Source of the DNA: an uncultured Actinomycetota bacterium
GTDB taxonomy: Bacteria; Actinomycetota; Actinomycetes; Streptosporangiales; Streptosporangiaceae
Direction of reading: 5' to 3'
NCBI GenBank assembly: GCA_963774385.1
Contig: CAVZEQ010000006.1
Coordinates: 226 to 64,225 of the forward strand
Length of the DNA stretch: 64,000 nt
This document shows positions 4,876 through 26,355 of this stretch, piece after piece. Each line of letters starts with the position of its first letter. Positions within the stretch are counted from its first letter, which is position 1. Under the pieces are notes generated by a model. That model saw only the letters and a program-made list of their open reading frames with translations. It searched no databases and was not told where the DNA came from. Made by a program: the position numbers and the translations under genes.

Positions 4876-5541
4876 GTGCAGCATGACCTAGAAATCTCCA
4901 CGGACGCCACCGCGGTAGCGAGCCGAGCCGCCAGCTACGTGGCACAGCAGGCGCGCGCCGCAGTGGCTGCCAGGGGGCGCTTCACCTTTGCGGTGAGCGG
5001 CGGCCGAACGCCGTGGGCCATGTTCGCCGAACTTGGCAGCGAAGACATGCCATGGGCCGACGTGGAGTTGTTCCAGGTCGACGAGCGGGTCGCGGCCGAC
5101 GGCGACCCGGACCGCAACCTGACCCAGCTGCGGGCGAGCCTGGGCCACGCCCCCGCCCGGGTGCATCCGATGCCGGTGACGGAGGCTGACCTGGACGCGG
5201 CAGCCGCCGGCTATGCCACTGTCCTGCCGCAGCAGTTCGACCTGGTGCACCTCGGCCTCGGCCCGGACGGCCATACGGCCTCGCTAGTTCCCGGCGATCC
5301 GGTCCTCGACGTCACTGACGCCCTGGTCGCGGTGACCCAGCCCTATCAAGGCCATCGCCGGATGACGCTCACCTATTCGGCGCTGGCCCGCGCCAACCAG
5401 CTGCTCTGGCTGGTGACCGGCGCTGACAAGCAGGATGCGCTGGCCCGGCTGCTGGCTGGTGATGAGTCGATCCCGGCCGGCCGGGTGCTGGCACTGCGCT
5501 CGCTGGTGCTGGCTGACGAGTCCGCGGTGAGGACCCCGTGA
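4876..5541 (+). CDS. pgl: 6-phosphogluconolactonase
   Basis: The GTG start follows the gnd stop after a 3-nt gap. Motifs FTFAVSGGRTP, FQVDERV and HLGLGPDGHTASL. Confidence 0.9.
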   Translation: MQHDLEISTDATAVASRAASYVAQQARAAVAARGRFTFAVSGGRTPWAMFAELGSEDMPWADVELFQVDERVAADGDPDRNLTQLRASLGHAPARVHPMPVTEADLDAAAAGYATVLPQQFDLVHLGLGPDGHTASLVPGDPVLDVTDALVAVTQPYQGHRRMTLTYSALARANQLLWLVTGADKQDALARLLAGDESIPAGRVLALRSLVLADESAVRTP

Positions 5542-7016
5542 CCTCCGCACCAGCCGGCACAGCGCCGGTACACGGCATCCCGCGACGGCCGGACAATCAT
5601 GTGATCGTGCTGTTCGGCGCTACCGGCGACCTGGCGAAGCGCAAGCTGCTGCCGGGCCTCTTCCACCTCGCGGTGGCGGGCTTGCTGCCGCCTAAATACC
5701 GGATCATCGGCAGCGCGCCTAAGAACTCCACGGTCAGCTCGGAGGAGTTCCGGCGGCACGCGCATGACGCCATCCAGGAGTTCGGAAGCAGCAAGCCCGT
5801 CGGCAAGTCCTGGCAGAACTTCGCCGAGTGCCTCAGCTTCGCCAGCGCGGATCCTGACGACGTGAGCCCGCTGCAGGAGGAACTTCACCAGGCCGAGACG
5901 GCCATCGGCGGCCAGGTCGGCCGGCTGTTTCACCTCGCAGTCCCGCCAGCCGCATTTACCTCCGTCGTCGGCATGCTGGGCTCGGCCGGCCTATCCGACG
6001 GTGCCCGGGTCATCATAGAGAAGCCCTTCGGCACTGACCTGGAGTCGGCTCGTGCGCTGAATAAGGCCCTGCATGAGGTCCTTGATGAGTCGCAGATCTT
6101 CCGGATCGACCACTTCCTTGGCAAGGAATCAGTCGACAACATCCTTGCCTTCCGGTTCGCCAACGGCCTGTTCGAGCCGGTCTGGAATCGGTCGCATATC
6201 AAGTACGTGCAGGTCGATGTGCCGGAGACGCTCTCGATCGAGGGCCGGGCGGATTTCTATGACAAGACCGGCGCCTTCCGCGACATGGTCGTGACGCACC
6301 TGCTCCAGGTGCTCGGTTTCGTGGCCATGGAGCCGCCGACCACCTTGAACGCACAGCAACTCAGGGCGGAGAAACTCAAGGTCTTTGACGCGCTGAAGCC
6401 GATTGACGTCCGGCATGTGGTGCGTGGCCAGTATGACGGATACCGCGCCGAGAAGGGCGTGGCGCCAGACTCGCAGACGGAGACCATGGTGGCGCTCCGC
6501 GTAGAGGTGGACAACTGGCGCTGGCACGGCGTGCCGTTCTACCTGCGGTCCGGGAAGACCCTCGGGGCCAGCCGCCAGGTCGTCACGCTTGGCTTCCACG
6601 AACCGCCGCTGCGCATGTTCACCACGCACAGAAAGTCGGTTCCGGACGGACGCCGGAACGAGATCATCATCGATTTCGCCGATCCGGGCTCCATCACCAC
6701 GAGGTTCCTGGCCAAGGAACCGGGCGCGGAAATGTGCCTGGCCGGAGCGAGCATGGTGTTCCGGTACTCGGAATCCTTCGCGACCGCGAACGCGCTGGAG
6801 GGCTACGAGCGGCTGATCCTGGACGCGATGATCGGCGATCAGGCGCTGTTCACCTCATCCGACGGCATCGAGCGGCTGTGGCAGGTCTCCGAGCCGCTGC
6901 TGGAGAACCCGCCGCCGGTGCAGCCGTACCAGCCGGGGTCATGGGGCCCGGATGCCGTGCACCGCCTCATCGCGCCATTCCGGTGGCATCTGCCAGACGC
7001 CGCGGGTACGCCATGA
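5538..7016 (+). CDS. zwf: glucose-6-phosphate 1-dehydrogenase
   Basis: The GTG start overlaps the pgl stop (GTGA). Dinucleotide motif LFGATGDLAKRKLLPGL and active-site motif RIDHFLGKE. Confidence 0.95.
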   Translation: MTSAPAGTAPVHGIPRRPDNHVIVLFGATGDLAKRKLLPGLFHLAVAGLLPPKYRIIGSAPKNSTVSSEEFRRHAHDAIQEFGSSKPVGKSWQNFAECLSFASADPDDVSPLQEELHQAETAIGGQVGRLFHLAVPPAAFTSVVGMLGSAGLSDGARVIIEKPFGTDLESARALNKALHEVLDESQIFRIDHFLGKESVDNILAFRFANGLFEPVWNRSHIKYVQVDVPETLSIEGRADFYDKTGAFRDMVVTHLLQVLGFVAMEPPTTLNAQQLRAEKLKVFDALKPIDVRHVVRGQYDGYRAEKGVAPDSQTETMVALRVEVDNWRWHGVPFYLRSGKTLGASRQVVTLGFHEPPLRMFTTHRKSVPDGRRNEIIIDFADPGSITTRFLAKEPGAEMCLAGASMVFRYSESFATANALEGYERLILDAMIGDQALFTSSDGIERLWQVSEPLLENPPPVQPYQPGSWGPDAVHRLIAPFRWHLPDAAGTP

Positions 7017-19306: not shown

Positions 19307-20257
19307 CTAGCTGGCGGCGGCGGGCACCGTGGGCACTGGTGTCCGCGGCGCACCTTTCCGGGTGACGGCGAGCACCCCGAGACAGACCAGCAGGGCTCCG
19401 CTCACCTGGATCAGGGTCGGACGCTCGCCGAGCACGACATCAGCAAGGGCCAGTGCCAGCGCCGGCTGCAGCAGCAGCAACAGCGACGAGACCCGCGCCG
19501 GGAGCCTGGGCAGCGAGGAGGTGATCAGCAGCCAGCCGAGCGTCCCGCTCAGCAATGCCAGCGTCAGCAGCCAGAAGAACGACGGCCACGGGACGCTGAA
19601 CTGCAGGCCGCCGCCGATCAGGCCCAGCGCGATGGCTCCGGCCGCCGCCCCGGCGGTCGCGTCGGCGAGCTGACCAGCCACGTGCGGATTCTGCCCGGAC
19701 GTGCTGCGCAGGATGAGCAGGAAGCACGCGTAGGCCGCGGAGGTTGCGATGCCGTAACCGACGCCGGCGGCCGGGCGCAGTCCGGCAGCGTGCCCGCCGA
19801 GCAGGCCGGAGACCAGTACCACGCCGAGCAGCACCACCGGCAGCACCCCGAGGTAGCGGCGGTCCGGGCGCTCGCGCAGGGCCACCCAGGCGAACATGGC
19901 CACGAACAGGACCTGAAGATTGCCGAGCACGGTAGCGATGCCGGCTCCTACATCGGCGATGGCATGGTTCCAGAGCACCAGGTCGATGGCGAGGAACAGG
20001 CCAGCCAGCACCGCGTACATCCGGCTTGCGAGCGGCCGCGGTCCGTGCCGCCGCTGCTCGATTATGGCCAGCGGCACGAGTACCGGCAGGGCCAGCACGC
20101 ACCGGAACAAGGCCGTCGTGGCCGAGCCGACGTGCGCGAGCGTCACCAGGATGGCCGACGACGAGATGCAGGCAGCGCCGAGCGCCGCGGTCAGCATCGG
20201 GCGGCCCGCTGCGGGCTCACTAGCGGTCATGACCGTTTCGTCGTACGGTACTGACAT
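19307..20257 (-). CDS. DMT (EamA-type) family transporter
   Basis: 316 aa, about 10 hydrophobic helices in two EamA-like halves. An alternative ATG at 20230 is possible. Confidence 0.85.
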   Translation of the reverse strand: MSVPYDETVMTASEPAAGRPMLTAALGAACISSSAILVTLAHVGSATTALFRCVLALPVLVPLAIIEQRRHGPRPLASRMYAVLAGLFLAIDLVLWNHAIADVGAGIATVLGNLQVLFVAMFAWVALRERPDRRYLGVLPVVLLGVVLVSGLLGGHAAGLRPAAGVGYGIATSAAYACFLLILRSTSGQNPHVAGQLADATAGAAAGAIALGLIGGGLQFSVPWPSFFWLLTLALLSGTLGWLLITSSLPRLPARVSSLLLLLQPALALALADVVLGERPTLIQVSGALLVCLGVLAVTRKGAPRTPVPTVPAAAS

Positions 20258-20870
20258 GGGTACGACTCTAGACGGCCGAGCTGACAGCAGTCAAAGTCAT
20301 TTTGATGCTGACCAGCTGGAAGCGATGACCGGCTTCGTGGAGCTGATTAACACCGGACGGGCCACTGGCGGGGACGGCCTCCGCACGCTGTCAGATCTGC
20401 AGGCGATGGCCGACCGCTACGCGTTCACCGGCGCCGGCGCCAAGACAGACGACCTTGTCCGGGTCAGAGCGTACCGCGCGCGGCTCGACTCGATAGTGAT
20501 GGCGTGCGAGGCAGGCCTGGAGGATGCGGCCATCGACCAGATCAACGCGCTGCTGGCGGAGACTGGCGCCAGCCCGCAGATCGTGTCGCACCACGGGCGC
20601 GGCCCGCACTTGCACGTCTCCAGGCCTGCCTCGCCGGTCGCGGACCGGATGGCCGCGCATTTCGCCATGGGCCTGGCTTGGCTGGTGGTGGCCGGCGAAG
20701 CGGGCCGCGTCCGCAGCTGCGAGTCTCCGACCTGCCGCGAGGTCTTCGTCGACTTCTCCCGGAACAGGTCGCGACGGTACTGCGACAGCCGGACCTGCGG
20801 CAACCGGCTGCATGTTGCCGCTTACCGGGCCCGCAAGCTGGCCCCCGCCGACGGCCAGCCGGTCAGCTGA
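20256..20870 (+). CDS. CGNR zinc-finger (ABATE-domain) protein
   Basis: ATG at 20256. The C-terminus reads CESPTCREVFVDFSRNRSRRYCDSRTCGNRLHVAAYRAR. The listed ORF 19920..20870 extends antisense into the DMT gene. Confidence 0.85.
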   Translation: MGTTLDGRADSSQSHFDADQLEAMTGFVELINTGRATGGDGLRTLSDLQAMADRYAFTGAGAKTDDLVRVRAYRARLDSIVMACEAGLEDAAIDQINALLAETGASPQIVSHHGRGPHLHVSRPASPVADRMAAHFAMGLAWLVVAGEAGRVRSCESPTCREVFVDFSRNRSRRYCDSRTCGNRLHVAAYRARKLAPADGQPVS

Positions 20871-20911
20871 CCGAGCCAAGCATTCGGGCCAGATACCGGG
20901 CGGAGCGCCGC

Positions 20912-21352
20912 TCAGCCGCCCGACCTGGCGACCCGCCTGATCCGCACCATGAGGGCGGCCGAGGGCGCGACGCGACCGGAGATATAGGTAGACAGCCGCG
21001 AACGTGACGTGCCGATTCGCTCAGCGAACTCCTGCTGCGACCAGCCGGAGTCATTGACCAGCTTGCGGATCTCGGCGGCAACCTCCTGCCGCTCAGAATC
21101 AGCGGCTTCCTCCCTCGCCCGGCTTACCAGCCCTGCCAGCAGTTCGGCCGTGCCGTAGGGGCGGGAAAGGCTGAGTGCCTCGATGACTTGCTGTGCGACC
21201 GGCCCCCATGGATCGGCCTTGATCGCCTGAGCAAGTCGGCGCCAGTCGGGCAGAGTGCCGCGCTCAACCGCGGCGAGGATCCCCTCGAAGGGCCAGGTCT
21301 CAACGGGATCGTCCGGTGAGGCCCCGATATTGCGGAACTTCAGGGCCGTCAT
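20912..21352 (-). CDS. protein with a C-terminal XRE-type HTH; putative antitoxin/regulator of the upstream NTase
   Basis: 146 aa. The HTH is WSQQEFAERIGTSRSRLSTYISGRVAPS; the N-terminal ~95 aa is unassigned. Its ATG overlaps the NTase stop (ATGA). Confidence 0.7.
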   Translation of the reverse strand: MTALKFRNIGASPDDPVETWPFEGILAAVERGTLPDWRRLAQAIKADPWGPVAQQVIEALSLSRPYGTAELLAGLVSRAREEAADSERQEVAAEIRKLVNDSGWSQQEFAERIGTSRSRLSTYISGRVAPSAALMVRIRRVARSGG

Positions 21353-22086
21353 TGGACCATCTCCACGGCCACGGACCGGCAGACATCGGTCACGTTCTTC
21401 CAGTCAGTCCAGCGAGGGTCGAGTTGCTTGTACTGACCGAGTTGCTTGATCGTGCGAGTATCGGCGGGCCTAGGGTCGGCTAGCTGCCGCGCCAGTTGCG
21501 TCGCCACCCCCTGCGATTCGCTGGCTCGCTGATCGCCGTAGTAGTCGTCGATGCTTCGAAGGACCTCTGCAGCGTGTGCGATGCCTGCCCGATCTGACAG
21601 TGCAGCGACGTCGATGTAGTCCCGCACCTGGTTACGGCGAACAACTAGATAGCCCTTGATCCGCAATATCTCGTCTAGCGCTGGAACGCGCACCACATGC
21701 CCTGACGGCAGTTCTACCTCGACGACTTCCAAGGGAACGTTCCGAATGAGCTGCCGCACGCCAGCCTCGATGTCACCCAATTCGCCGAGGATGATTCTTC
21801 CGGGAGCGACCCTGTTAGTAACCCAGCCGTCGGTTGCTTCGATCGCGTCCAGCACGACATCGAATCGAGCGTTCAGATCTGCCAGCACGTGGTCATGATC
21901 AAGCGACGAGCGGTGATTAGCCCACAGCGCTGCCGCAGAGCCTCCGACCAGCACTGAATCTGGGACGACGTCTTGAAGGCGAGCCGCAGACTCAAGCACG
22001 CGAAGCAGGTCAGGGCGCCCGAGCCCAGCCGGGTCGCTGCCAGGCTGATTTTTATCTCGGACGGGTTCGGAAGGCACTTCGGCCAT
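21349..22086 (-). CDS. AbiEii/DUF1814-like nucleotidyltransferase (putative toxin)
   Basis: 245 aa. VLVGGSAAALWANHRSSLDHDHV gives the G-G-S/T ... HRxSxDxD NTase motifs. LRIKGYLVVRRNQVRDYIDVAAL gives the K...R...RDxxD motif III of the AbiEii family. Confidence 0.7.
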   Translation of the reverse strand: MAEVPSEPVRDKNQPGSDPAGLGRPDLLRVLESAARLQDVVPDSVLVGGSAAALWANHRSSLDHDHVLADLNARFDVVLDAIEATDGWVTNRVAPGRIILGELGDIEAGVRQLIRNVPLEVVEVELPSGHVVRVPALDEILRIKGYLVVRRNQVRDYIDVAALSDRAGIAHAAEVLRSIDDYYGDQRASESQGVATQLARQLADPRPADTRTIKQLGQYKQLDPRWTDWKNVTDVCRSVAVEMVQ

Positions 22087-22090
22087 ATTC

Positions 22091-22116
22091 GCAGTGTATC
22101 AGATCTGATACACTGC
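22091..22116 (-). promoter_or_regulatory. 26-bp perfect palindrome (operator) overlapping a -10-like hexamer immediately upstream of the NTase ATG
   Basis: GCAGTGTATCAGATCTGATACACTGC. On the gene strand it reads ...GATACACT-GCGAAT-ATG, placing TACACT 6 nt before the start codon. No SD sequence is present. Confidence 0.6.
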
Positions 22117-22153
22117 CTACGAACCAGTTCCCCTCACCTGACTGAAGCCTTAG

Positions 22154-22555
22154 TCAGTCGCGGGGGGAGAGCGTGGCCAGGCCGGCGTCGCCTGCGGCCC
22201 GCAAGAGCCGGTCATCGTAGGTGATCAGTCCGTCTAGCTCGGGTGCGAGGATTCGTGCGGTCGCTAGGTGGATCGCGTCGAGCGAGCGGAGGTTGCGGTC
22301 CGGCTCATTCATCGCGCCCTCGACAATGTCGTCGTCGATGGCGATCGAGGAGAAAGCGAGGAGCAAATCCCGTGCATCGGGAAGCAGCGCGGGAACCGCC
22401 CTGGTGACTGCGCGGGTGAGCTCGATCCGCAGCAGCGCAGAGCTCACCCACTCCGCTTCAGCCTGCGCATCGTAGAAGGCCGCGAACGCTTCGGAGTCTG
22501 TCTCCTCGACGAGCAGTTTGATGACTGCGGAGGTGTCGGCGTAGTAGAGGCTCAC
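22154..22555 (-). CDS. vapC: type II toxin VapC (PIN-domain ribonuclease)
   Basis: 133 aa. MSLYYADTSAVIKLL..., SLDAIHLATA and ITYDDRL supply the PIN acidic residues. It overlaps the upstream antitoxin gene by 4 nt. Confidence 0.9.
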   Translation of the reverse strand: MSLYYADTSAVIKLLVEETDSEAFAAFYDAQAEAEWVSSALLRIELTRAVTRAVPALLPDARDLLLAFSSIAIDDDIVEGAMNEPDRNLRSLDAIHLATARILAPELDGLITYDDRLLRAAGDAGLATLSPRD

Positions 22556-22845
22556 CAGCGTTCCTCATCGCGCAACGCCGCCAGCGCCTGCGAAAGGCTG
22601 TCAGTCCCGTCTCCTGAGCGCATCCGCGGACGGTAGCCTGGTCGACGCGCAAGAGTTGCGCGCCCAGAAGCCACCAGTCGCGCCAGTATCGGCGTCGGTT
22701 CGCGGTCTCCCGCCGGAACGATCCGAGCAATGAGTCGCCCGTGTTCGGTCACGTCGACCGTCTCACCGTGCCTGACCCGCGCCAGCACCTCACTGGTGTG
22801 GTGGCGCAGGTCTCTCAGGCCGACAACATGAGGGTCAGCAGTCAT
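22552..22845 (-). CDS. type II antitoxin, Phd/YefM family (VapB-type partner)
   Basis: 97 aa. VGLRDLRHHTSEVLARVRHGETVDVTEHGRLIARIVP is the Phd/YefM N-terminal fold pattern. Confidence 0.88.
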   Translation of the reverse strand: MTADPHVVGLRDLRHHTSEVLARVRHGETVDVTEHGRLIARIVPAGDREPTPILARLVASGRATLARRPGYRPRMRSGDGTDSLSQALAALRDEERW

Positions 22846-22853
22846 GAGCTGAA

Positions 22854-22876
22854 TGTATCACAATTTTGTGGATACA
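22854..22876 (-). promoter_or_regulatory. imperfect palindrome (operator) plus -10-like hexamer upstream of the antitoxin ATG
   Basis: The gene strand reads GTGTATC-CACAAAATTGT-GATACATT-CAGCTC-ATG. The half-sites are the same as at 22091..22116. TACATT lies 6 nt before the ATG. No SD sequence is present. Confidence 0.5.
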
Positions 22877-22898
22877 CGGTGCAGGGCGGGCTCGCAGC

Positions 22899-23591
<693 letters not shown>

Positions 23592-23721: not shown

Positions 23722-24408
23722 TCAGCCGAGCTTGCTGAGGCTGATCACCTGGCTGGCCGCCGGAGCCGCGGGCATGGTGACGGAGTTCCAGTCGGTGAAC
23801 GCGATGTGCTGCCCGTGCGGACCGGTGAAGAACAGCAGGTAGGGCTTGCCGTGTGCGGCGACGTCGATCGTGTACAGGCCCTGGTGGCATTGCAGCACAG
23901 ACTGGCCGTTCACGGTGGCGGGCGTGAAATCGCACCCGCTAGCGGCGCCAGAGTTCACGTTCTTGTTGCTGAACACCTGGTTGACCAGCTGCTTCATGCT
24001 CAGCGAGCCAGTAATCTGGCTGGCGCTGGCAGCAGGCAGCTCGACGTACTTGCCGCAGATCGTGGCACAGGCGCTGGCCGGCGCCTTGGCGTACTTCAGG
24101 AACGCCGCGTCAAGCTTGATGTAGGTCTTGCCATTCAGCGACAGCAAGTTGAAGCTGGCGCCGTTCAGCCCGACGGTCCCAGCTACCGACGGTCCGCTGA
24201 AGCTCATGTCGATGGTTGCCTTCTGCGAGCCCTGGTTCACTGCGCCCGCCATATGGACACTGGTCGCAGCCTTCGCCGCAGCCTGTACCTCAGGCATCAG
24301 TTTCGCGGCTGGCTTGCTGCCCGCTGGCGACGAACTGCAACCCGCCGCCGCCAGGCCCGCTGCTAGCACAGCGGCTAGCGCAGCCCCCCGGATCAATCGC
24401 GTACTCAT
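23722..24408 (-). CDS. putative lipoprotein (paralogue 1)
   Basis: The ATG at 24408 gives MSTRLIRGAALAAVLAAGLAAAGCSS, with lipobox LAAAGC. No family recognised. Confidence 0.7.
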   Translation of the reverse strand: MSTRLIRGAALAAVLAAGLAAAGCSSSPAGSKPAAKLMPEVQAAAKAATSVHMAGAVNQGSQKATIDMSFSGPSVAGTVGLNGASFNLLSLNGKTYIKLDAAFLKYAKAPASACATICGKYVELPAASASQITGSLSMKQLVNQVFSNKNVNSGAASGCDFTPATVNGQSVLQCHQGLYTIDVAAHGKPYLLFFTGPHGQHIAFTDWNSVTMPAAPAASQVISLSKLG

Positions 24409-24553
24409 CGTGCCTCCCGTTTGGCTGGCGCGGGATCCGCGCACACAATGCCGCTGGCAGGCTATAGCGGGGCAGCCAGCCGCGCCCATACCGGATTTAT
24501 CTCGTTCGCGTCTCAATGGTCCTGGCCGAAAACAGCCAATTATCCTGCTTTCG

Positions 24554-25282
24554 TCAGCCGATTCCTTTCAGGTTGAGTACGTCGCTGGCGGGCGGTGCCG
24601 TCGGCGGCGGCACGGCGTTCCAGTGCGAGTAACTGATCTGCTGGCGCGGGTTCGTGCCGGTCACCGCCGCCAGCGGGTATGGCGGCCCGGCCGAGCGCAC
24701 ATCGAGTGAGCCGCCGCCGGGACCGCGCAGCACCCAGGCAGCCTGCCCGGCCACGGTCACAGTGCCGGCCTCGGTGAACTTAGGCAGCTTGGTCGTGACG
24801 AGCTGGCCGGTCATGCTTGCCATGCCAATGTCGCCGGTGATTTGCGTGGACTGCGGCGGATGCAGCTGGATCCACTTGCCGCACACCACGGCACATGCGT
24901 TAGCCGGGGCCTTGACCTGGCGCAGGAAGGCCGGCGTGGCCTTGACGAAGACGCTGCCGCCGACTCCGATGACCTGGAACGGCGCGCCGTTCTGGCTGAC
25001 GGTGCCGGCCATGTCCCCGTTCCGCTGCAGATCGAGGTTGATCGCAATCGGCACGCCCGCATTCGTCAGCCGTCCGGTGACGTGGACGCTGTTAGCAGTG
25101 CGCACCGACTGCTGCATCGAGGTCACCAGTGCCGCCTCGGCTGGCTCCTGGCGGCCGGCCGCCGTGGTGCTGCTGCTGGCGCTGGCATTGCCGCTGACGC
25201 TGTTGCTGCTGCCGCACCCGGCCGCAGCGAGCACCGCGCCTGCTGCCAGCCCGGTAGCCAGCAACCTGCCGGAAACGACCAT
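24554..25282 (-). CDS. putative lipoprotein (paralogue 2)
   Basis: The ATG at 25282 gives MVVSGRLLATGLAAGAVLAAAGCGSS. It shares AP-A-x-ACAxxCGK(Y/W) and QITG blocks with the neighbouring gene. Confidence 0.7.
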   Translation of the reverse strand: MVVSGRLLATGLAAGAVLAAAGCGSSNSVSGNASASSSTTAAGRQEPAEAALVTSMQQSVRTANSVHVTGRLTNAGVPIAINLDLQRNGDMAGTVSQNGAPFQVIGVGGSVFVKATPAFLRQVKAPANACAVVCGKWIQLHPPQSTQITGDIGMASMTGQLVTTKLPKFTEAGTVTVAGQAAWVLRGPGGGSLDVRSAGPPYPLAAVTGTNPRQQISYSHWNAVPPPTAPPASDVLNLKGIG

Positions 25283-25359
25283 CCAGCCCACTACCCCCCG
25301 AATAACCTGCGCACCTTGCAGTTCCGGCAGCCGCCCGCATGCCGTCTGCTGACACGTGC

Positions 25360-26355
25360 TTACCCGGTCCGCTCCACCACGAACTCGCACAGCGCTTCGA
25401 ATGCGGCCCGCGCCGGAACATCCGGCAGCTGCCGGATCTCCGTCCTGGCCTGCTCCGCCCAGCGCCTGGTGTCAGCCCTGGCCATGGCCATCGCCGGGTG
25501 AGCCCGCAGCAACTCGAGCGCCTCCGCGTGCAGCCCCGGATCAGTGAGCTCGCCCATGCTCAGCAGCTGGACAAGGCGGTCGTCCGCCGACCCGGCCGAG
25601 CGCAGCGCGTGCAGCATCGGCAGCGTCCGCACTCCTTCACGCAGGTCAGTCCCCGGCGTCTTACCGGACTGGGCCGACGCGCTGGCCACGTCCAGGATGT
25701 CATCGGATAGCTGGAATGCGACGCCCAGGGCTGCGCAGGCGGGCGTGATCCGGGCGGCTACGCTGGCCGGCGCGCCGGAGAACAACGCCCCGAACTGCCC
25801 TGCGGTCGCGATCAGCGAGGCTGTCTTCTCGGTAACGACGCTCAGGTAGTGCTCCAGCGGATCGGTGCCCGGTCGGCAGCCCACGGTCTCCGCGATCTGT
25901 CCCGTCACCAGCCTGCTGAAAGTCTCGGCCTGAATCCGGATCGCGTCCGGCCCGAGATCGGCCAGGATCTGCGAGGCCCTGGCGAACAGGAAGTCGCCGG
26001 TGAGTATCGCGACGGTGTTACCCCATCGCGAGTTGGCGCTGTCGCTGCCGCGCCGGACGACGGCCTCATCCATCACGTCATCGTGATAAAGAGTGGCAAG
26101 ATGGGTCAGCTCCACAGCCACCGCGGCCGGCACGATGCGGGCGTCTCTCGGATCGCCGAACTGCGCCGCCAGCAGGACGAGCGTCGGCCGGAACCGCTTG
26201 CCTCCAGCTTCGGTCAGGTGAGCGGACGCCTCCGCGAGCACGTCGTGCTGCGCCTGGGCGGCCGCCCGCAGCCCATCCTCGACCAGCGCTAGCCCGTCGA
26301 CTACCTCGGACGCGAGCGCGGCATCGGTGAGTTCCATCACTGCAGCGGCCATCAC
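25360..26355 (-). CDS. polyprenyl diphosphate synthase (trans-IPPS, menaquinone side chain type)
   Basis: 331 aa with the two Asp-rich motifs LYHDDVMDE and QLSDDILD. Confidence 0.9.
   Translation of the reverse strand: MMAAAVMELTDAALASEVVDGLALVEDGLRAAAQAQHDVLAEASAHLTEAGGKRFRPTLVLLAAQFGDPRDARIVPAAVAVELTHLATLYHDDVMDEAVVRRGSDSANSRWGNTVAILTGDFLFARASQILADLGPDAIRIQAETFSRLVTGQIAETVGCRPGTDPLEHYLSVVTEKTASLIATAGQFGALFSGAPASVAARITPACAALGVAFQLSDDILDVASASAQSGKTPGTDLREGVRTLPMLHALRSAGSADDRLVQLLSMGELTDPGLHAEALELLRAHPAMAMARADTRRWAEQARTEIRQLPDVPARAAFEALCEFVVERTG

What the first reader, a model, noticed from the sequence alone, without database searches (positions are those of the whole stretch)
20912..22880. 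Four-gene minus-strand TA/abortive-infection-like islet: AbiEii-like nucleotidyltransferase paired, toxin-first, with a non-canonical C-terminal-HTH protein next to Phd/YefM-VapC
Seen in sequence: there are four co-directional ORFs. The Phd/YefM and PIN genes overlap by 4 nt. A 67-nt spacer follows. Next comes a 245-aa ORF with NTase motifs (GGSAAALWANHRSSLDHD and RDYIDV). Its stop overlaps (ATGA) the start of a 146-aa ORF whose only recognisable part is a C-terminal XRE HTH. The stretch looks more A/T-rich than both flanks by eye (not computed). It sits between the housekeeping gene msrA and a CGNR/DMT pair. Established knowledge: in AbiE/MenAT systems the AbiEii (DUF1814, PF08843) toxin lies downstream of a COG5340/AbiEi winged-helix antitoxin. 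Here the partner belongs to a different family and lies downstream, a HigBA-like order. Inference: this may be an undescribed AbiEii-family TA or defence variant, possibly co-regulated with the adjacent VapBC.
Basis: partly seen in the sequence, partly recalled or inferred. Interest (0 to 1): 0.72.

Follow-up and report, generated by a model that had tools for sequence, protein, structure and literature searches.

The report
Reversed-order MenT-like toxin–antitoxin module
Two overlapping genes encode a MenT/AbiEii-type nucleotidyltransferase followed by an unnamed helical domain fused to a DNA-binding domain, behind a conserved operator; this pair recurs in hundreds of bacterial species, is probably an uncharacterised toxin–antitoxin variant, and is independent of the ordinary VapBC pair next to it.

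Summary
The four minus-strand ORFs, both 4-nt overlaps, the 67-nt spacer and the GC dip are all confirmed. However, they form two separate modules, not one islet.

**Module 1:** an ordinary Phd–VapC(PIN) pair.

**Module 2:**
- The 245-aa NTase is a divergent PF08843 (AbiEii/MenT) relative. Its model is closest to MenT1, and it keeps every MenT1 catalytic residue at the same spacing.
- Its 146-aa partner has a conserved three-helix N-domain with no Pfam or PDB match, a long helix, and an XRE HTH.
- In 79 of 80 species genomes the partner lies directly downstream. The distance is −4 nt in 48 of 76 and never exceeds 14 nt of overlap or a 4-nt gap. Flanking genes vary widely.
- VapBC is adjacent in only 2 of those 80 genomes.
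- A palindrome, TATCA-N4-TGATA, precedes the NTase in 63 of 80 loci exactly and in 77 of 80 with up to 2 mismatches. It occurs nowhere else in 612 kb. It overlaps a TAnnnT −10 box placed 6 nt before the start codon, which suggests a leaderless transcript.
- N-domain-only partners exist.

**Most likely reading (0.6):** a toxin-first, autorepressed MenT-like toxin–antitoxin module. Toxicity is untested. I rate it a new variant of a known kind, of moderate interest.

The parts
21349..22086 (-). NTase gene (245 aa), a divergent AbiEii/MenT (DUF1814, PF08843) family member and the presumed toxin. Catalytic and regulatory residues are R59, S61, D63, D65, K144, D156 and D159.
   Evidence: ORF. Pfam AbiEii 22.2 bits against a gathering score of 22.5; 33 of 54 diverse relatives hit AbiEii, best 4.4e-11. 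Conserved columns. AF2 model pLDDT 93.3. Best PDB folds are MenT1 8an5/8an4, JHP933 4ok0 and 5uvd. The residue pattern and spacing equal MenT1 R37/T39/D41/D43/K137/D149/D152 (PMC11375011).
20912..21352 (-). Partner gene (146 aa), the presumed antitoxin and autorepressor. Its start overlaps the NTase stop (ATGA).
   Evidence: ORF. Present directly downstream of the NTase in 79 of 80 genomes. Stop-to-start distance is -4 nt in 48 of 76 loci and within -14..+4 in all. AF2 model pLDDT 92.7.
21098..21352 (-). N-terminal domain of the partner (aa 1-85): three short helices plus the start of a long connecting helix. It is strongly conserved (F6 R7 N8 P16 W20 P21 E23 E30 R31 G32 W37 R39 P48 W49 G50 P65 Y66 G67 R80) and is the inferred NTase-binding and neutralising domain.
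   Evidence: Conservation. No Pfam hit and no PDB sequence or fold hit. Occurs as a stand-alone 87-aa protein downstream of an NTase on an Arthrobacter plasmid (hhalign E = 5e-26). Weaker stand-alone candidates lie downstream in Deferribacter and upstream in Acidiphilium and P. putida.
20912..21091 (-). C-terminal XRE/Cro-type helix-turn-helix domain of the partner (aa ~88-146), the inferred operator-binding domain.
   Evidence: Pfam HTH_3 6.8e-10 and HTH_31 9e-9. Fold matches to HipB, C.AhdI, C.BclI, ClgR and HigA2 over about 55-60 residues.
22091..22116 (.). Perfect 26-nt palindrome GCAGTGTATCAGATCTGATACACTGC. Its conserved core TATCA-N4-TGATA (22097-22110) is the inferred operator of the NTase-partner operon.
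   Evidence: Palindrome. It occurs once in the 64-kb window even when one mismatch is allowed. The exact core lies within 260 nt upstream of the NTase in 63 of 80 genomes and nowhere else in 612 kb of those loci. Of the other 17 loci, 14 carry a variant with 1-2 mismatches.
22093..22098 (-). -10-like hexamer TACACT (TAnnnT). It overlaps the right half of the operator and ends 6 nt before the NTase ATG at 22086, which implies a leaderless bicistronic mRNA.
   Evidence: Sequence. The same geometry, with a start codon 10-11 nt after the motif, holds in 39 of the 63 sequences tabulated, which are 62 loci plus the window itself. Most others have the start 21-39 nt downstream, many behind an AGGAGG-like Shine-Dalgarno. 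The consensus after the motif is TGATA..aT. Inference only; the sigma-70 consensus scan found nothing.
22552..22845 (-). Phd/YefM-type antitoxin gene of a separate, ordinary VapBC module.
   Evidence: Pfam PhdYeFM 4.7e-6. TIGR01552 9e-9, above its cut-off.
22154..22555 (-). VapC (PIN-domain) toxin gene of the separate VapBC module. It overlaps phd by 4 nt.
   Evidence: Pfam PIN 5.1e-12. Adjacent to the NTase pair in only 2 of the 80 genome-scan loci (L005, L029) plus L004.
22852..22876 (-). phd-vapC promoter region. It holds an imperfect palindrome TGTATC(C)ACAA-AA-TTGTGATACA and a -10-like TACATT that ends 6 nt before the phd ATG, so this transcript is also probably leaderless.
   Evidence: Read directly from the sequence. 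Not tested further. It does not match TATCA-N4-TGATA.

Best explanation
The region holds two independent modules. One is an ordinary Phd-VapC pair. The other is a two-gene operon that most likely works as a toxin-antitoxin (TA) system built on a MenT/AbiEii-type nucleotidyltransferase.

**Proposed mechanism**
1. A promoter whose -10 box (TACACT) overlaps the right half of the palindrome TATCA-N4-TGATA starts a leaderless mRNA at the NTase ATG.
2. The NTase is translated first. The partner is translated by coupling through the ATGA overlap.
3. By analogy with MenT1, MenT3 and AbiEii, the free NTase adds nucleotides to tRNA 3' ends and blocks translation.
4. The partner's conserved N-terminal helical domain binds the NTase. 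It neutralises it either by sequestration or by inducing auto-phosphorylation of the conserved Ser61.
5. The partner's C-terminal XRE HTH, as a dimer, binds the palindrome and represses the operon.

**Shown here**
- Family and fold of the NTase, with intact catalytic residues.
- Conservation of the pair, its order and the tight coupling distance.
- Conservation and position of the palindrome relative to the start codon.
- Variable genomic context.
- Existence of partners made of the N-domain alone.

**Inferred**
- Toxicity and the tRNA target.
- Neutralisation by the N-domain.
- DNA binding by the HTH.
- Leaderless transcription.
For: **NTase family**
- Pfam AbiEii is the only hit. 33 of 54 diverse relatives hit it, best 4.4e-11, and several pass the gathering score.
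- The AF2 model (pLDDT 93.3) is closest to MenT1, JHP933 and 5uvd.
- R59-x-S61-x-D63-x-D65, K144, D156 and D159 reproduce MenT1 R37-x-T39-x-D41-x-D43, K137, D149 and D152, including the +12 and +15 spacings (PMC11375011).
- PGAP names an orthologue an AbiEii/AbiGii toxin family protein.

**Module behaviour**
- The partner is directly downstream in 79 of 80 species genomes from Actinomycetota, Deinococcota (Trueperaceae) and Chloroflexota.
- The distance is -4 nt in 48 of 76 loci and within -14..+4 in all.
- About 390 distinct flanking-gene clusters occur around 80 loci. Relatives sit on plasmids. Local GC is the lowest in the window.
- The one locus without a partner (L082) has a frameshifted NTase.

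**Regulation**
- TATCA-N4-TGATA is exact in 63 of 80 loci, or 77 of 80 allowing up to 2 mismatches. It has zero occurrences elsewhere in 612 kb and a single occurrence in the window.
- The TAnnnT box and the start codon sit at a fixed 10-11 nt after the motif in 39 of 63 sequences.

**Partner**
- The HTH fold resembles the TA antitoxins HipB and HigA2.
- An N-domain-only partner is found on an Arthrobacter plasmid.
Against: - No toxicity, binding or DNA-binding data exist for any member of this family.
- The window protein itself falls 0.3 bits below Pfam's gathering score.
- It has no NCBIfam, PADLOC or PDB sequence hit, even when searched with a profile.
- Fold scores to the antibiotic NTases ANT(2'')-Ia and LnuA (TMt 0.59-0.62) are close to those for MenT1 (0.65).
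- Both proteins are unusually well conserved for a TA pair: the partner is 50-85% identical across phyla. Some lineages keep the module at a syntenic site. Both facts would also fit a housekeeping or regulatory role.
- The L082 anecdote and the truncated partners come from MAGs and may be assembly errors.
- Toxin-first order on a leaderless mRNA gives no obvious route to antitoxin excess.
Confidence: 0.6

Rival explanations
1. The NTase is not a toxin. It is a conserved enzyme acting on a small molecule (for example an antibiotic or metabolite, as ANT(2'')-Ia and LnuA do) or on an RNA or protein in normal physiology. The partner is its dedicated repressor, and its N-terminal domain senses a ligand or the enzyme's state.
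For: - Fold similarity to ANT(2'')-Ia and LnuA is nearly as good as to MenT1.
- Sequence conservation of both proteins across phyla is high.
- Some lineages keep the module at a syntenic site.
- No PADLOC hit for the NTase, and only weak generic HTH matches for the partner.
- The conserved operator shows regulation but not toxicity.
Against: - The residues that are conserved are the DUF1814-specific set, including the MenT phospho-acceptor position and K..RDxxD.
- Pfam sees only AbiEii.
- A 4-nt translational coupling with the regulator placed downstream is typical of TA pairs.
- HTH-less, N-domain-only partners argue for a protein-protein role of the N-domain, not a repressor's sensor.
- Flanks are highly variable and some relatives are plasmid-borne.
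- The only locus lacking a partner has a broken NTase.
Confidence: 0.22
2. The roles are reversed, or the partner is the substrate. The NTase nucleotidylates or phosphorylates the HTH protein, as the MNT antitoxin AMPylates HEPN in type VII systems. This would switch the HTH protein's DNA binding, making the pair a regulatory switch rather than a toxin and its antidote.
For: - NTase-fold proteins act as modifying antitoxins in HEPN-MNT systems (established knowledge).
- The N-domain has many invariant polar and aromatic residues, including Y66, R31 and R39, that could form a modification or docking site.
- Tight stoichiometric coupling.
Against: - All characterised DUF1814 members (AbiEii, MenT1, MenT3, MenT4) are the toxic component (PMC3985639, PMC10435456, PMC11375011).
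- N-domain-only partners have no DNA-binding output to switch.
- No homology of the partner to any known toxin.
Confidence: 0.08
3. The four genes form one co-regulated TA/abortive-infection islet, with cross-talk between VapBC and the NTase pair.
For: - The genes are co-directional, only 67 nt apart, and no terminator was detected between them.
- Both promoters contain TGTATC...GATACA arms.
- The same four-gene order occurs in L004, L005 and L029.
Against: - Of the 80 genome-scan loci, 78 have the NTase pair without VapBC next to it.
- The NTase pair has its own conserved operator and -10 box directly at its start codon.
- The phd promoter does not contain TATCA-N4-TGATA, even with one mismatch allowed.
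- The shared GATACA is largely the -10 box.
Confidence: 0.05

Closest known systems
MenAT1 (Rv0078B-Rv0078A) of Mycobacterium tuberculosis
   Same: The toxin's predicted fold is closest to MenT1 (8an5_B, E = 2e-5, TMt 0.65). The pattern R-x-(S/T)-x-D-x-D ... K-x11-D-x2-D is identical, including the phospho-acceptor position. The partner is not a COG5340 protein.
   Different: - No detectable sequence similarity to MenT1, even with a family profile.
- MenA1 is a 68-aa protein without a DNA-binding domain, encoded upstream (PMC10435456).
- Here the partner is 146 aa with a different helical N-domain plus an XRE HTH, and it is encoded downstream.
AbiE (AbiEi-AbiEii) and MenAT3/MenAT4, i.e. COG5340-COG2253 systems
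   Same: Same Pfam family for the NTase (PF08843). A bicistronic, overlapping operon. The antitoxin has two parts, one DNA-binding and one neutralising, and autorepresses through inverted repeats in the promoter (PMC3985639).
   Different: - In AbiE the regulator precedes the NTase. It has an N-terminal winged HTH and a C-terminal neutralising domain (COG5340).
- Here the order of the genes and the order of the domains are both inverted. The HTH is XRE-type and the neutralising domain is unrelated.
- The AbiE operator is two 23-bp repeats. Here it is a single 14-bp core palindrome over the -10 box.
HigBA2 (and HigBA generally)
   Same: Toxin-first gene order. The antitoxin has an N-terminal toxin-binding part and a C-terminal XRE-type HTH that binds a palindromic operator. 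The HTH fold matches HigA2 (5jaa, 8a0x).
   Different: The toxin is a RelE-fold ribonuclease unrelated to NTases. The HigA2 N-terminal part is intrinsically disordered, whereas this N-domain is predicted with high confidence to be folded.
In-silico 'abiEii-HTH_XRE' and 'abiEii-higA' modules reported in Pseudomonas aeruginosa genomes (PMC9424990)
   Same: An AbiEii-type NTase is paired with an XRE/HigA-type HTH protein instead of AbiEi. These modules are uncharacterised.
   Different: They are known only as domain-pair counts from a TADB-based pipeline. No partner N-domain, operator or gene-order analysis was given. Homology to the present family was not tested here.

Membership tests
AbiEii / DUF1814 nucleotidyltransferase (Pfam PF08843) | Scores above the Pfam gathering threshold | tested here: inconclusive
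   The window protein scores 22.2 bits against a cut-off of 22.5, E = 1.6e-4. 33 of 54 diverse relatives match at E <= 0.01, best 4.4e-11, and several exceed the cut-off at 24.6-33 bits.
AbiEii / DUF1814 nucleotidyltransferase (Pfam PF08843) | Pol-beta motifs I and II: hG[GS] followed after roughly 9-15 residues by DhD | tested here: met
   V47-G48-G49-S50, then 12 residues, then D63-H64-D65. G48, G49, D63 and D65 are conserved in at least 90% of 54 diverse sequences. Motif definition from PMC3985639.
AbiEii / DUF1814 nucleotidyltransferase (Pfam PF08843) | Family-specific C-terminal motifs: the catalytic Lys (motif III) and the downstream acidic residues (MenT1 K137, D149, D152) | tested here: met
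   K144 is at least 90% conserved. R151, R155, D156 and D159 are invariant. The K-to-D spacings of +12 and +15 are identical to MenT1.
AbiEii / DUF1814 nucleotidyltransferase (Pfam PF08843) | Bi-lobed MenT/JHP933-type fold | tested here: met
   AF2 model pLDDT 93.3. The top PDB matches are MenT1 8an5/8an4, JHP933 4ok0 and 5uvd, probability 1.00, TMt 0.52-0.65.
AbiEii / DUF1814 nucleotidyltransferase (Pfam PF08843) | Nucleotidyl transfer to tRNA 3' ends, and growth inhibition | not testable with these tools
   Requires expression and in-vitro assays.
AbiE / MenAT3-type system (COG5340-COG2253) | Antitoxin is a COG5340 (AbiEi) protein with an N-terminal winged HTH and a C-terminal neutralising domain | tested here: not met
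   The partner has no AbiEi, COG5340 or any other Pfam hit in aa 1-85. Its HTH is XRE-type and C-terminal.
AbiE / MenAT3-type system (COG5340-COG2253) | The regulator/antitoxin gene precedes the NTase gene | tested here: not met
   The partner is downstream in the window and in 79 of 80 genomes. The rule is stated in PMC3985639.
MenAT1-type system | Small (about 68 aa) MenA1 antitoxin without a DNA-binding domain, encoded upstream | tested here: not met
   The partner is 146 aa, has an HTH and is downstream. Searches of PDB chain sequences with the partner, with its N-domain profile and with a distant 75-aa N-domain-like protein returned no MenAT1 (8an5) chain. I did not confirm that a MenA1 chain is in that library. 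A direct MenA1 alignment was not possible.
Type II-like toxin-antitoxin module (generic) | Two small adjacent co-directional genes, translationally coupled, conserved as a pair in variable genomic contexts | tested here: met
Type II-like toxin-antitoxin module (generic) | Palindromic operator in the promoter, available for a DNA-binding antitoxin | tested here: met
   The sequence feature is conserved. Binding itself was not testable.
Type II-like toxin-antitoxin module (generic) | The toxin arrests growth and the antitoxin neutralises it | not testable with these tools
   Only indirect hints. The single locus without a partner has a frameshifted NTase.
Known anti-phage defence systems (PADLOC-DB v2) | A match to a defence-system model | tested here: not met
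   The NTase has no hit. The partner has only weak generic HTH hits, E >= 9e-5. No homologue in 50,697 phage records.
VapBC (Phd/YefM antitoxin + PIN toxin), neighbouring module | A Phd/YefM-family gene overlapping a downstream PIN-domain gene | tested here: met
   Pfam PIN 5.1e-12. TIGR01552 34.5 bits, above its cut-off of 20.8. 4-nt overlap.

The most novel reading that the evidence does not exclude
The roughly 85-aa helical N-domain (signature FRN...WP.E....ERG.L.DW.RL....PWG....PYG) is a new, portable antitoxin domain dedicated to a large MenT1-like NTase clade. It can work alone or fused to an XRE HTH, and from either side of the toxin gene. It neutralises not by simple sequestration but by pushing the conserved Ser61 loop into the active site, so that the toxin auto-phosphorylates. 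That would be the mechanism recently shown for MenA1 and MenA3, reached here by a third, unrelated protein fold.
Probability: 0.3. Interest if true: 0.7.

Novelty: new variant of a known kind. Interest (0 to 1): 0.55.

Why it matters
MenT/AbiEii nucleotidyltransferases are a major class of tRNA-targeting toxins. They are studied in M. tuberculosis persistence and in phage abortive infection. Every characterised example uses an upstream antitoxin, either a COG5340 protein or the small MenA1.

This family is large but has no family-specific name:
- At least 556 species genomes carry a relative.
- There are about 1,170 NTase clusters at 50% identity and about 2,000 partner proteins.
- Members are labelled 'hypothetical' or given only a generic family name.

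It has a different antitoxin domain, inverted gene and domain order, and an unusually clear, conserved operator and leaderless-promoter architecture.

If confirmed, it would:
- add a third antitoxin solution for one toxin fold;
- test whether antitoxin-induced auto-phosphorylation is general;
- give annotation pipelines a pair rule (NTase + N-domain) and an operator motif;
- provide a simple system for studying toxin-first, leaderless TA regulation in Actinomycetota.

Tried and rejected
- **Sequence searches of the NTase against PDB.** Neither the single sequence nor the 54-sequence profile gave a meaningful hit. MenT1, MenT3 and MenT4 were not recovered, so the link to MenT rests on Pfam, motifs and fold.
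- **NCBIfam and PADLOC.** Nothing for the NTase.
- **Phage genomes.** No homologue.
- **Rfam on 20700-23100.** Nothing.
- **Generic sigma-70 promoter and terminator scan.** Zero sites. The -10 assignment comes instead from cross-locus conservation.
- **Partner N-domain.** No Pfam hit, no PDB sequence hit, and no PDB or BFVD fold match beyond the HTH.
- **Homology of the N-domain to MenA1.** Could not be tested directly because no MenA1 sequence was at hand. PDB sequence searches with N-domain queries returned no MenAT1 (8an5) chain.
- **Genome scan with the 54-sequence alignment.** Failed for lack of a conserved stretch. It was repeated with 14 sequences.
- **Structure prediction with locus-derived partner sequences.** It was redone with database sequences.
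- **Complex prediction.** Not possible with the tools.
- **Short partner proteins of 90-113 aa in the database.** They look like frameshift truncations, not genuine N-domain-only genes. Only the Arthrobacter plasmid case is used as solid evidence.
- **One TA/Abi islet with VapBC.** Rejected on the context survey.


Full report
**1. Observation**

All four minus-strand ORFs exist as described:
- HTH protein, 20912-21352, 146 aa
- NTase, 21349-22086, 245 aa
- PIN, 22154-22555, 133 aa
- Phd, 22552-22845, 97 aa

The sequence confirms the other details. phd and vapC overlap by 4 nt (GTGA). The NTase and HTH genes overlap by 4 nt (ATGA). The spacer between vapC and the NTase is 67 nt.

Family scans gave these results:
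- Pfam: PIN at 5e-12, PhdYeFM at 4.7e-6, and HTH_3 at 6.8e-10 covering only aa 95-139 of the 146-aa protein.
- TIGR01552 supports the Phd assignment at 9e-9.
- AbiEii is the only hit for the 245-aa protein, at 22.2 bits against a gathering score of 22.5.
- The flanks are msrA on one side and a CGNR/ABATE regulator plus an EamA transporter on the other.

At GC 0.634, the islet is the lowest of all equally sized sliding windows in the 64 kb (mean 0.677, sd 0.018). The NTase gene (0.610) and the spacer (0.493) drive the dip.

**2. The NTase**

The protein belongs to a large family:
- 4,247 clusters at 90% identity.
- 1,170 clusters at 50% identity with E <= 1e-3, of which 718 have E <= 1e-10.
- Nearly all members are labelled 'hypothetical protein'.

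The link to AbiEii/DUF1814 rests on several lines:
- Of 54 diverse members, 33 match Pfam AbiEii, best 4.4e-11. Some pass the gathering score.
- In the 54-sequence alignment, R59, R151, R155, D156 and D159 are invariant. G48, G49, H58, S61, D63, D65 and K144 are at least 90% conserved.
- These residues reproduce the set defined experimentally in MenT1: R37-x-T39-x-D41-x-D43, K137, D149 and D152 (PMC11375011). The window protein has R59-x-S61-x-D63-x-D65, K144, D156 and D159, with the same K-to-D spacings of +12 and +15.
- S61 sits at the MenT1 T39 / MenT3 S78 position, which is the auto-phosphorylation site.
- An AlphaFold2 model (pLDDT 93.3, pTM 0.88) is most similar to MenT1 (8an5, 8an4), H. 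pylori JHP933 (4ok0) and 5uvd. ANT(2'')-Ia and LnuA follow.

Some searches found nothing. Sequence searches against PDB failed to recover the MenTs, even with a profile. NCBIfam and PADLOC have no model for this protein. PGAP already names a 62%-identical plasmid orthologue 'nucleotidyl transferase AbiEii/AbiGii toxin family protein'.

I conclude that this is a divergent but genuine DUF1814/MenT-type NTase with an apparently intact active site.

**3. The partner**

The 146-aa protein has 1,458 relatives when searched full-length. A profile of aa 1-85 alone finds 1,992. Full-length hits are about 145-150 aa, and most carry a precomputed XRE-type HTH assignment.

The AF2 model (pLDDT 92.7) shows three short helices (22-31, 34-46, 51-62), a long helix (68-102) and a three-helix HTH (106-144).

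The N-domain is more conserved than the HTH. Invariant residues include F6, R7, N8, P16, W20, P21, E23, E30, R31, G32, W37, R39, P48, W49, G50, P65, Y66, G67 and R80.

It has no Pfam match and no PDB sequence or fold match. The fold hits (HipB, C-proteins, ClgR, HigA2, phage repressors) cover only the HTH.

**4. The pair is a module, and VapBC is not part of it**

A scan of one genome per GTDB species found at least 556 species that encode an NTase relative. I examined the best 80 loci. They come from many Actinomycetota families, from Trueperaceae (Deinococcota) and from Limnocylindrales (Chloroflexota).

- **Partner presence.** In 79 of 80 loci the partner, including its N-domain, lies directly downstream on the same strand.
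- **Coupling distance.** The NTase-stop to partner-start distance is -4 nt in 48 of 76 loci and within -14..+4 nt in all.
- **The exception.** L082 has a frameshifted NTase and no partner.
- **Flanking genes.** Crude gene calling gave about 390 distinct neighbour clusters. Only a few small syntenic groups appeared.
- **Other contexts.** Metagenomic contigs L001-L003 show the pair between an ABC transporter and a DUF899 gene.
- **Plasmids.** Relatives occur on eight plasmid records from Pseudonocardia, Pseudarthrobacter, Arthrobacter, Acidiphilium, Pseudomonas and Deferribacter.
- **VapBC.** It is adjacent only in L005 and L029 among the 80, and in the near-identical metagenomic locus L004.

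The 'four-gene islet' is therefore two modules that happen to be neighbours.

**5. A conserved operator and promoter**

Seven nt upstream of the NTase ATG lies a perfect 26-nt palindrome, GCAGTGTATCAGATCTGATACACTGC, at 22091-22116.

Its core, TATCA-N4-TGATA, is strikingly specific:
- It is present within 260 nt upstream of the NTase in 63 of 80 genomes.
- It occurs nowhere else in the 612 kb of those loci.
- Of the remaining 17 loci, 14 have a variant with 1-2 mismatches.
- In the 64-kb window it occurs once, even with one mismatch allowed (0.15 expected by chance).

The last two bases of the motif start a TAnnnT hexamer; the consensus is TGATA..aT. In 39 of the 63 sequences tabulated (62 loci plus the window), an in-frame ATG or GTG begins 10-11 nt after the motif. 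That is 6-7 nt after the hexamer.

This is the geometry expected for actinobacterial leaderless mRNAs, a point that rests on established knowledge. In most of the other sequences the start codon is 21-39 nt downstream, many behind an AGGAGG-like Shine-Dalgarno.

In the window the sequence reads TGATACACT-gcgaat-ATG. The inferred picture is that an HTH dimer bound to the palindrome would occlude the -10 box.

**6. Wider family**

More distant NTase relatives on plasmids point to the N-domain as the constant partner:
- **Arthrobacter caoxuetaonis plasmid.** An 87-aa protein directly downstream of the NTase is the N-domain alone (hhalign E = 5e-26, probability 99.7%).
- **Deferribacter.** A weaker candidate lies downstream (112 aa, E = 5.8e-4).
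- **Acidiphilium and P. putida pKF715A.** Candidates lie upstream (96 aa, E = 3.6e-4, and 75 aa, E = 0.022). They share the '(E/S)RG.(L/W).DW..L' signature.

If these weak matches are real, both gene order and HTH fusion vary across the clade, and the HTH is a later addition. Only the Arthrobacter case is solid.

**7. Comparison with known systems**

- Dy et al. (PMC3985639) defined the COG5340-COG2253 and COG4861-COG4849 pairs. They state that in each case the regulator precedes the NTase.
- MenA1 is a 68-aa upstream protein without a DNA-binding domain (PMC10435456).
- The present pair inverts both gene order and domain order, and it uses an XRE HTH plus an unrelated helical domain.
- In architecture it resembles HigBA2: toxin first, with an antitoxin made of an N-terminal binding part and a C-terminal HTH.
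- An in-silico survey of P. aeruginosa counted 'abiEii-HTH_XRE' and 'abiEii-higA' modules without characterising them (PMC9424990). The general combination is therefore not unheard of.
- Literature searches turned up no description of this family, its N-domain or its operator.

**8. Verdict**

The most likely explanation (about 0.6) is a toxin-first, translationally coupled, autorepressed MenT-like TA module. Its antitoxin neutralises through a new N-terminal domain and represses through its XRE HTH.

The rivals are:
- a non-toxic regulated NTase (about 0.22);
- an NTase that modifies its partner (about 0.08);
- a co-regulated four-gene islet (about 0.05).

No functional property has been tested. 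I rate this a new variant of a known kind. Interest is moderate (0.55): the family is large, clean and experimentally tractable, but it extends an established paradigm rather than breaking it.

Noticed in passing
window 22852-22876 (minus strand): The phd-vapC promoter region has an imperfect palindrome, TGTATC(C)ACAA-AA-TTGTGATACA. A -10-like TACATT ends 6 nt before the phd ATG, so this neighbouring module also looks leaderless. It shares the GATACA/TGTATC arms with the NTase operator but not the TATCA-N4-TGATA spacing.
   Followed up: partly
L082:3962-4693 and 5461-6553: This is the only one of the 80 genomes without the partner. Here the NTase is split by a frameshift into 105-aa and 133-aa ORFs. 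Downstream lies a separate pair: a short ORF whose sequence looks like an XRE-type HTH, followed by a 247-aa ORF containing an HELGH motif (judged by eye as ImmA/IrrE-like; no family search was run). The source is a MAG, so an assembly error cannot be excluded.
   Followed up: partly
L001:6702-6962 (= L006) versus L003:6702-7184: In one MAG the partner gene has a premature stop after about 86 codons, which keeps the N-domain and loses the HTH. A sister assembly has the intact 160-aa gene. Several database partners of 90-113 aa look like similar frameshift truncations. These are possibly long-read assembly errors.
   Followed up: partly
L087 (Deferribacter pDF308) and L088 (Acidiphilium plasmid): Distant NTase relatives on these plasmids sit next to CRISPR-Cas genes (cas6 and a TIGR02556 family protein; cas3'). 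This hints at a defence-island context for part of the family.
   Followed up: no
P0312, P0302 (relatives): Some family members are fusions. P0312 (406 aa) carries C-terminal ankyrin repeats. P0302 (424 aa) has an N-terminal DUF6036-type NTase domain in front of the AbiEii-like domain.
   Followed up: no
window 19920-20870 (+) versus 19307-20257 (-): The longest CGNR/ABATE reading frame (316 aa from TTG at 19920) overlaps the convergent-looking EamA gene by about 340 nt. The Pfam domains start at aa 140, and the orthologue in L004 is called at 181 aa. The real start is probably near 20330.
   Followed up: no
window 23722-24516 (-) and 24554-25390 (-): Two tandem ORFs (264 and 278 aa). By eye they look paralogous and carry lipoprotein-like signal sequences (...AAGCSS / ...AAGCGSS), directly beyond msrA.
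   Followed up: no
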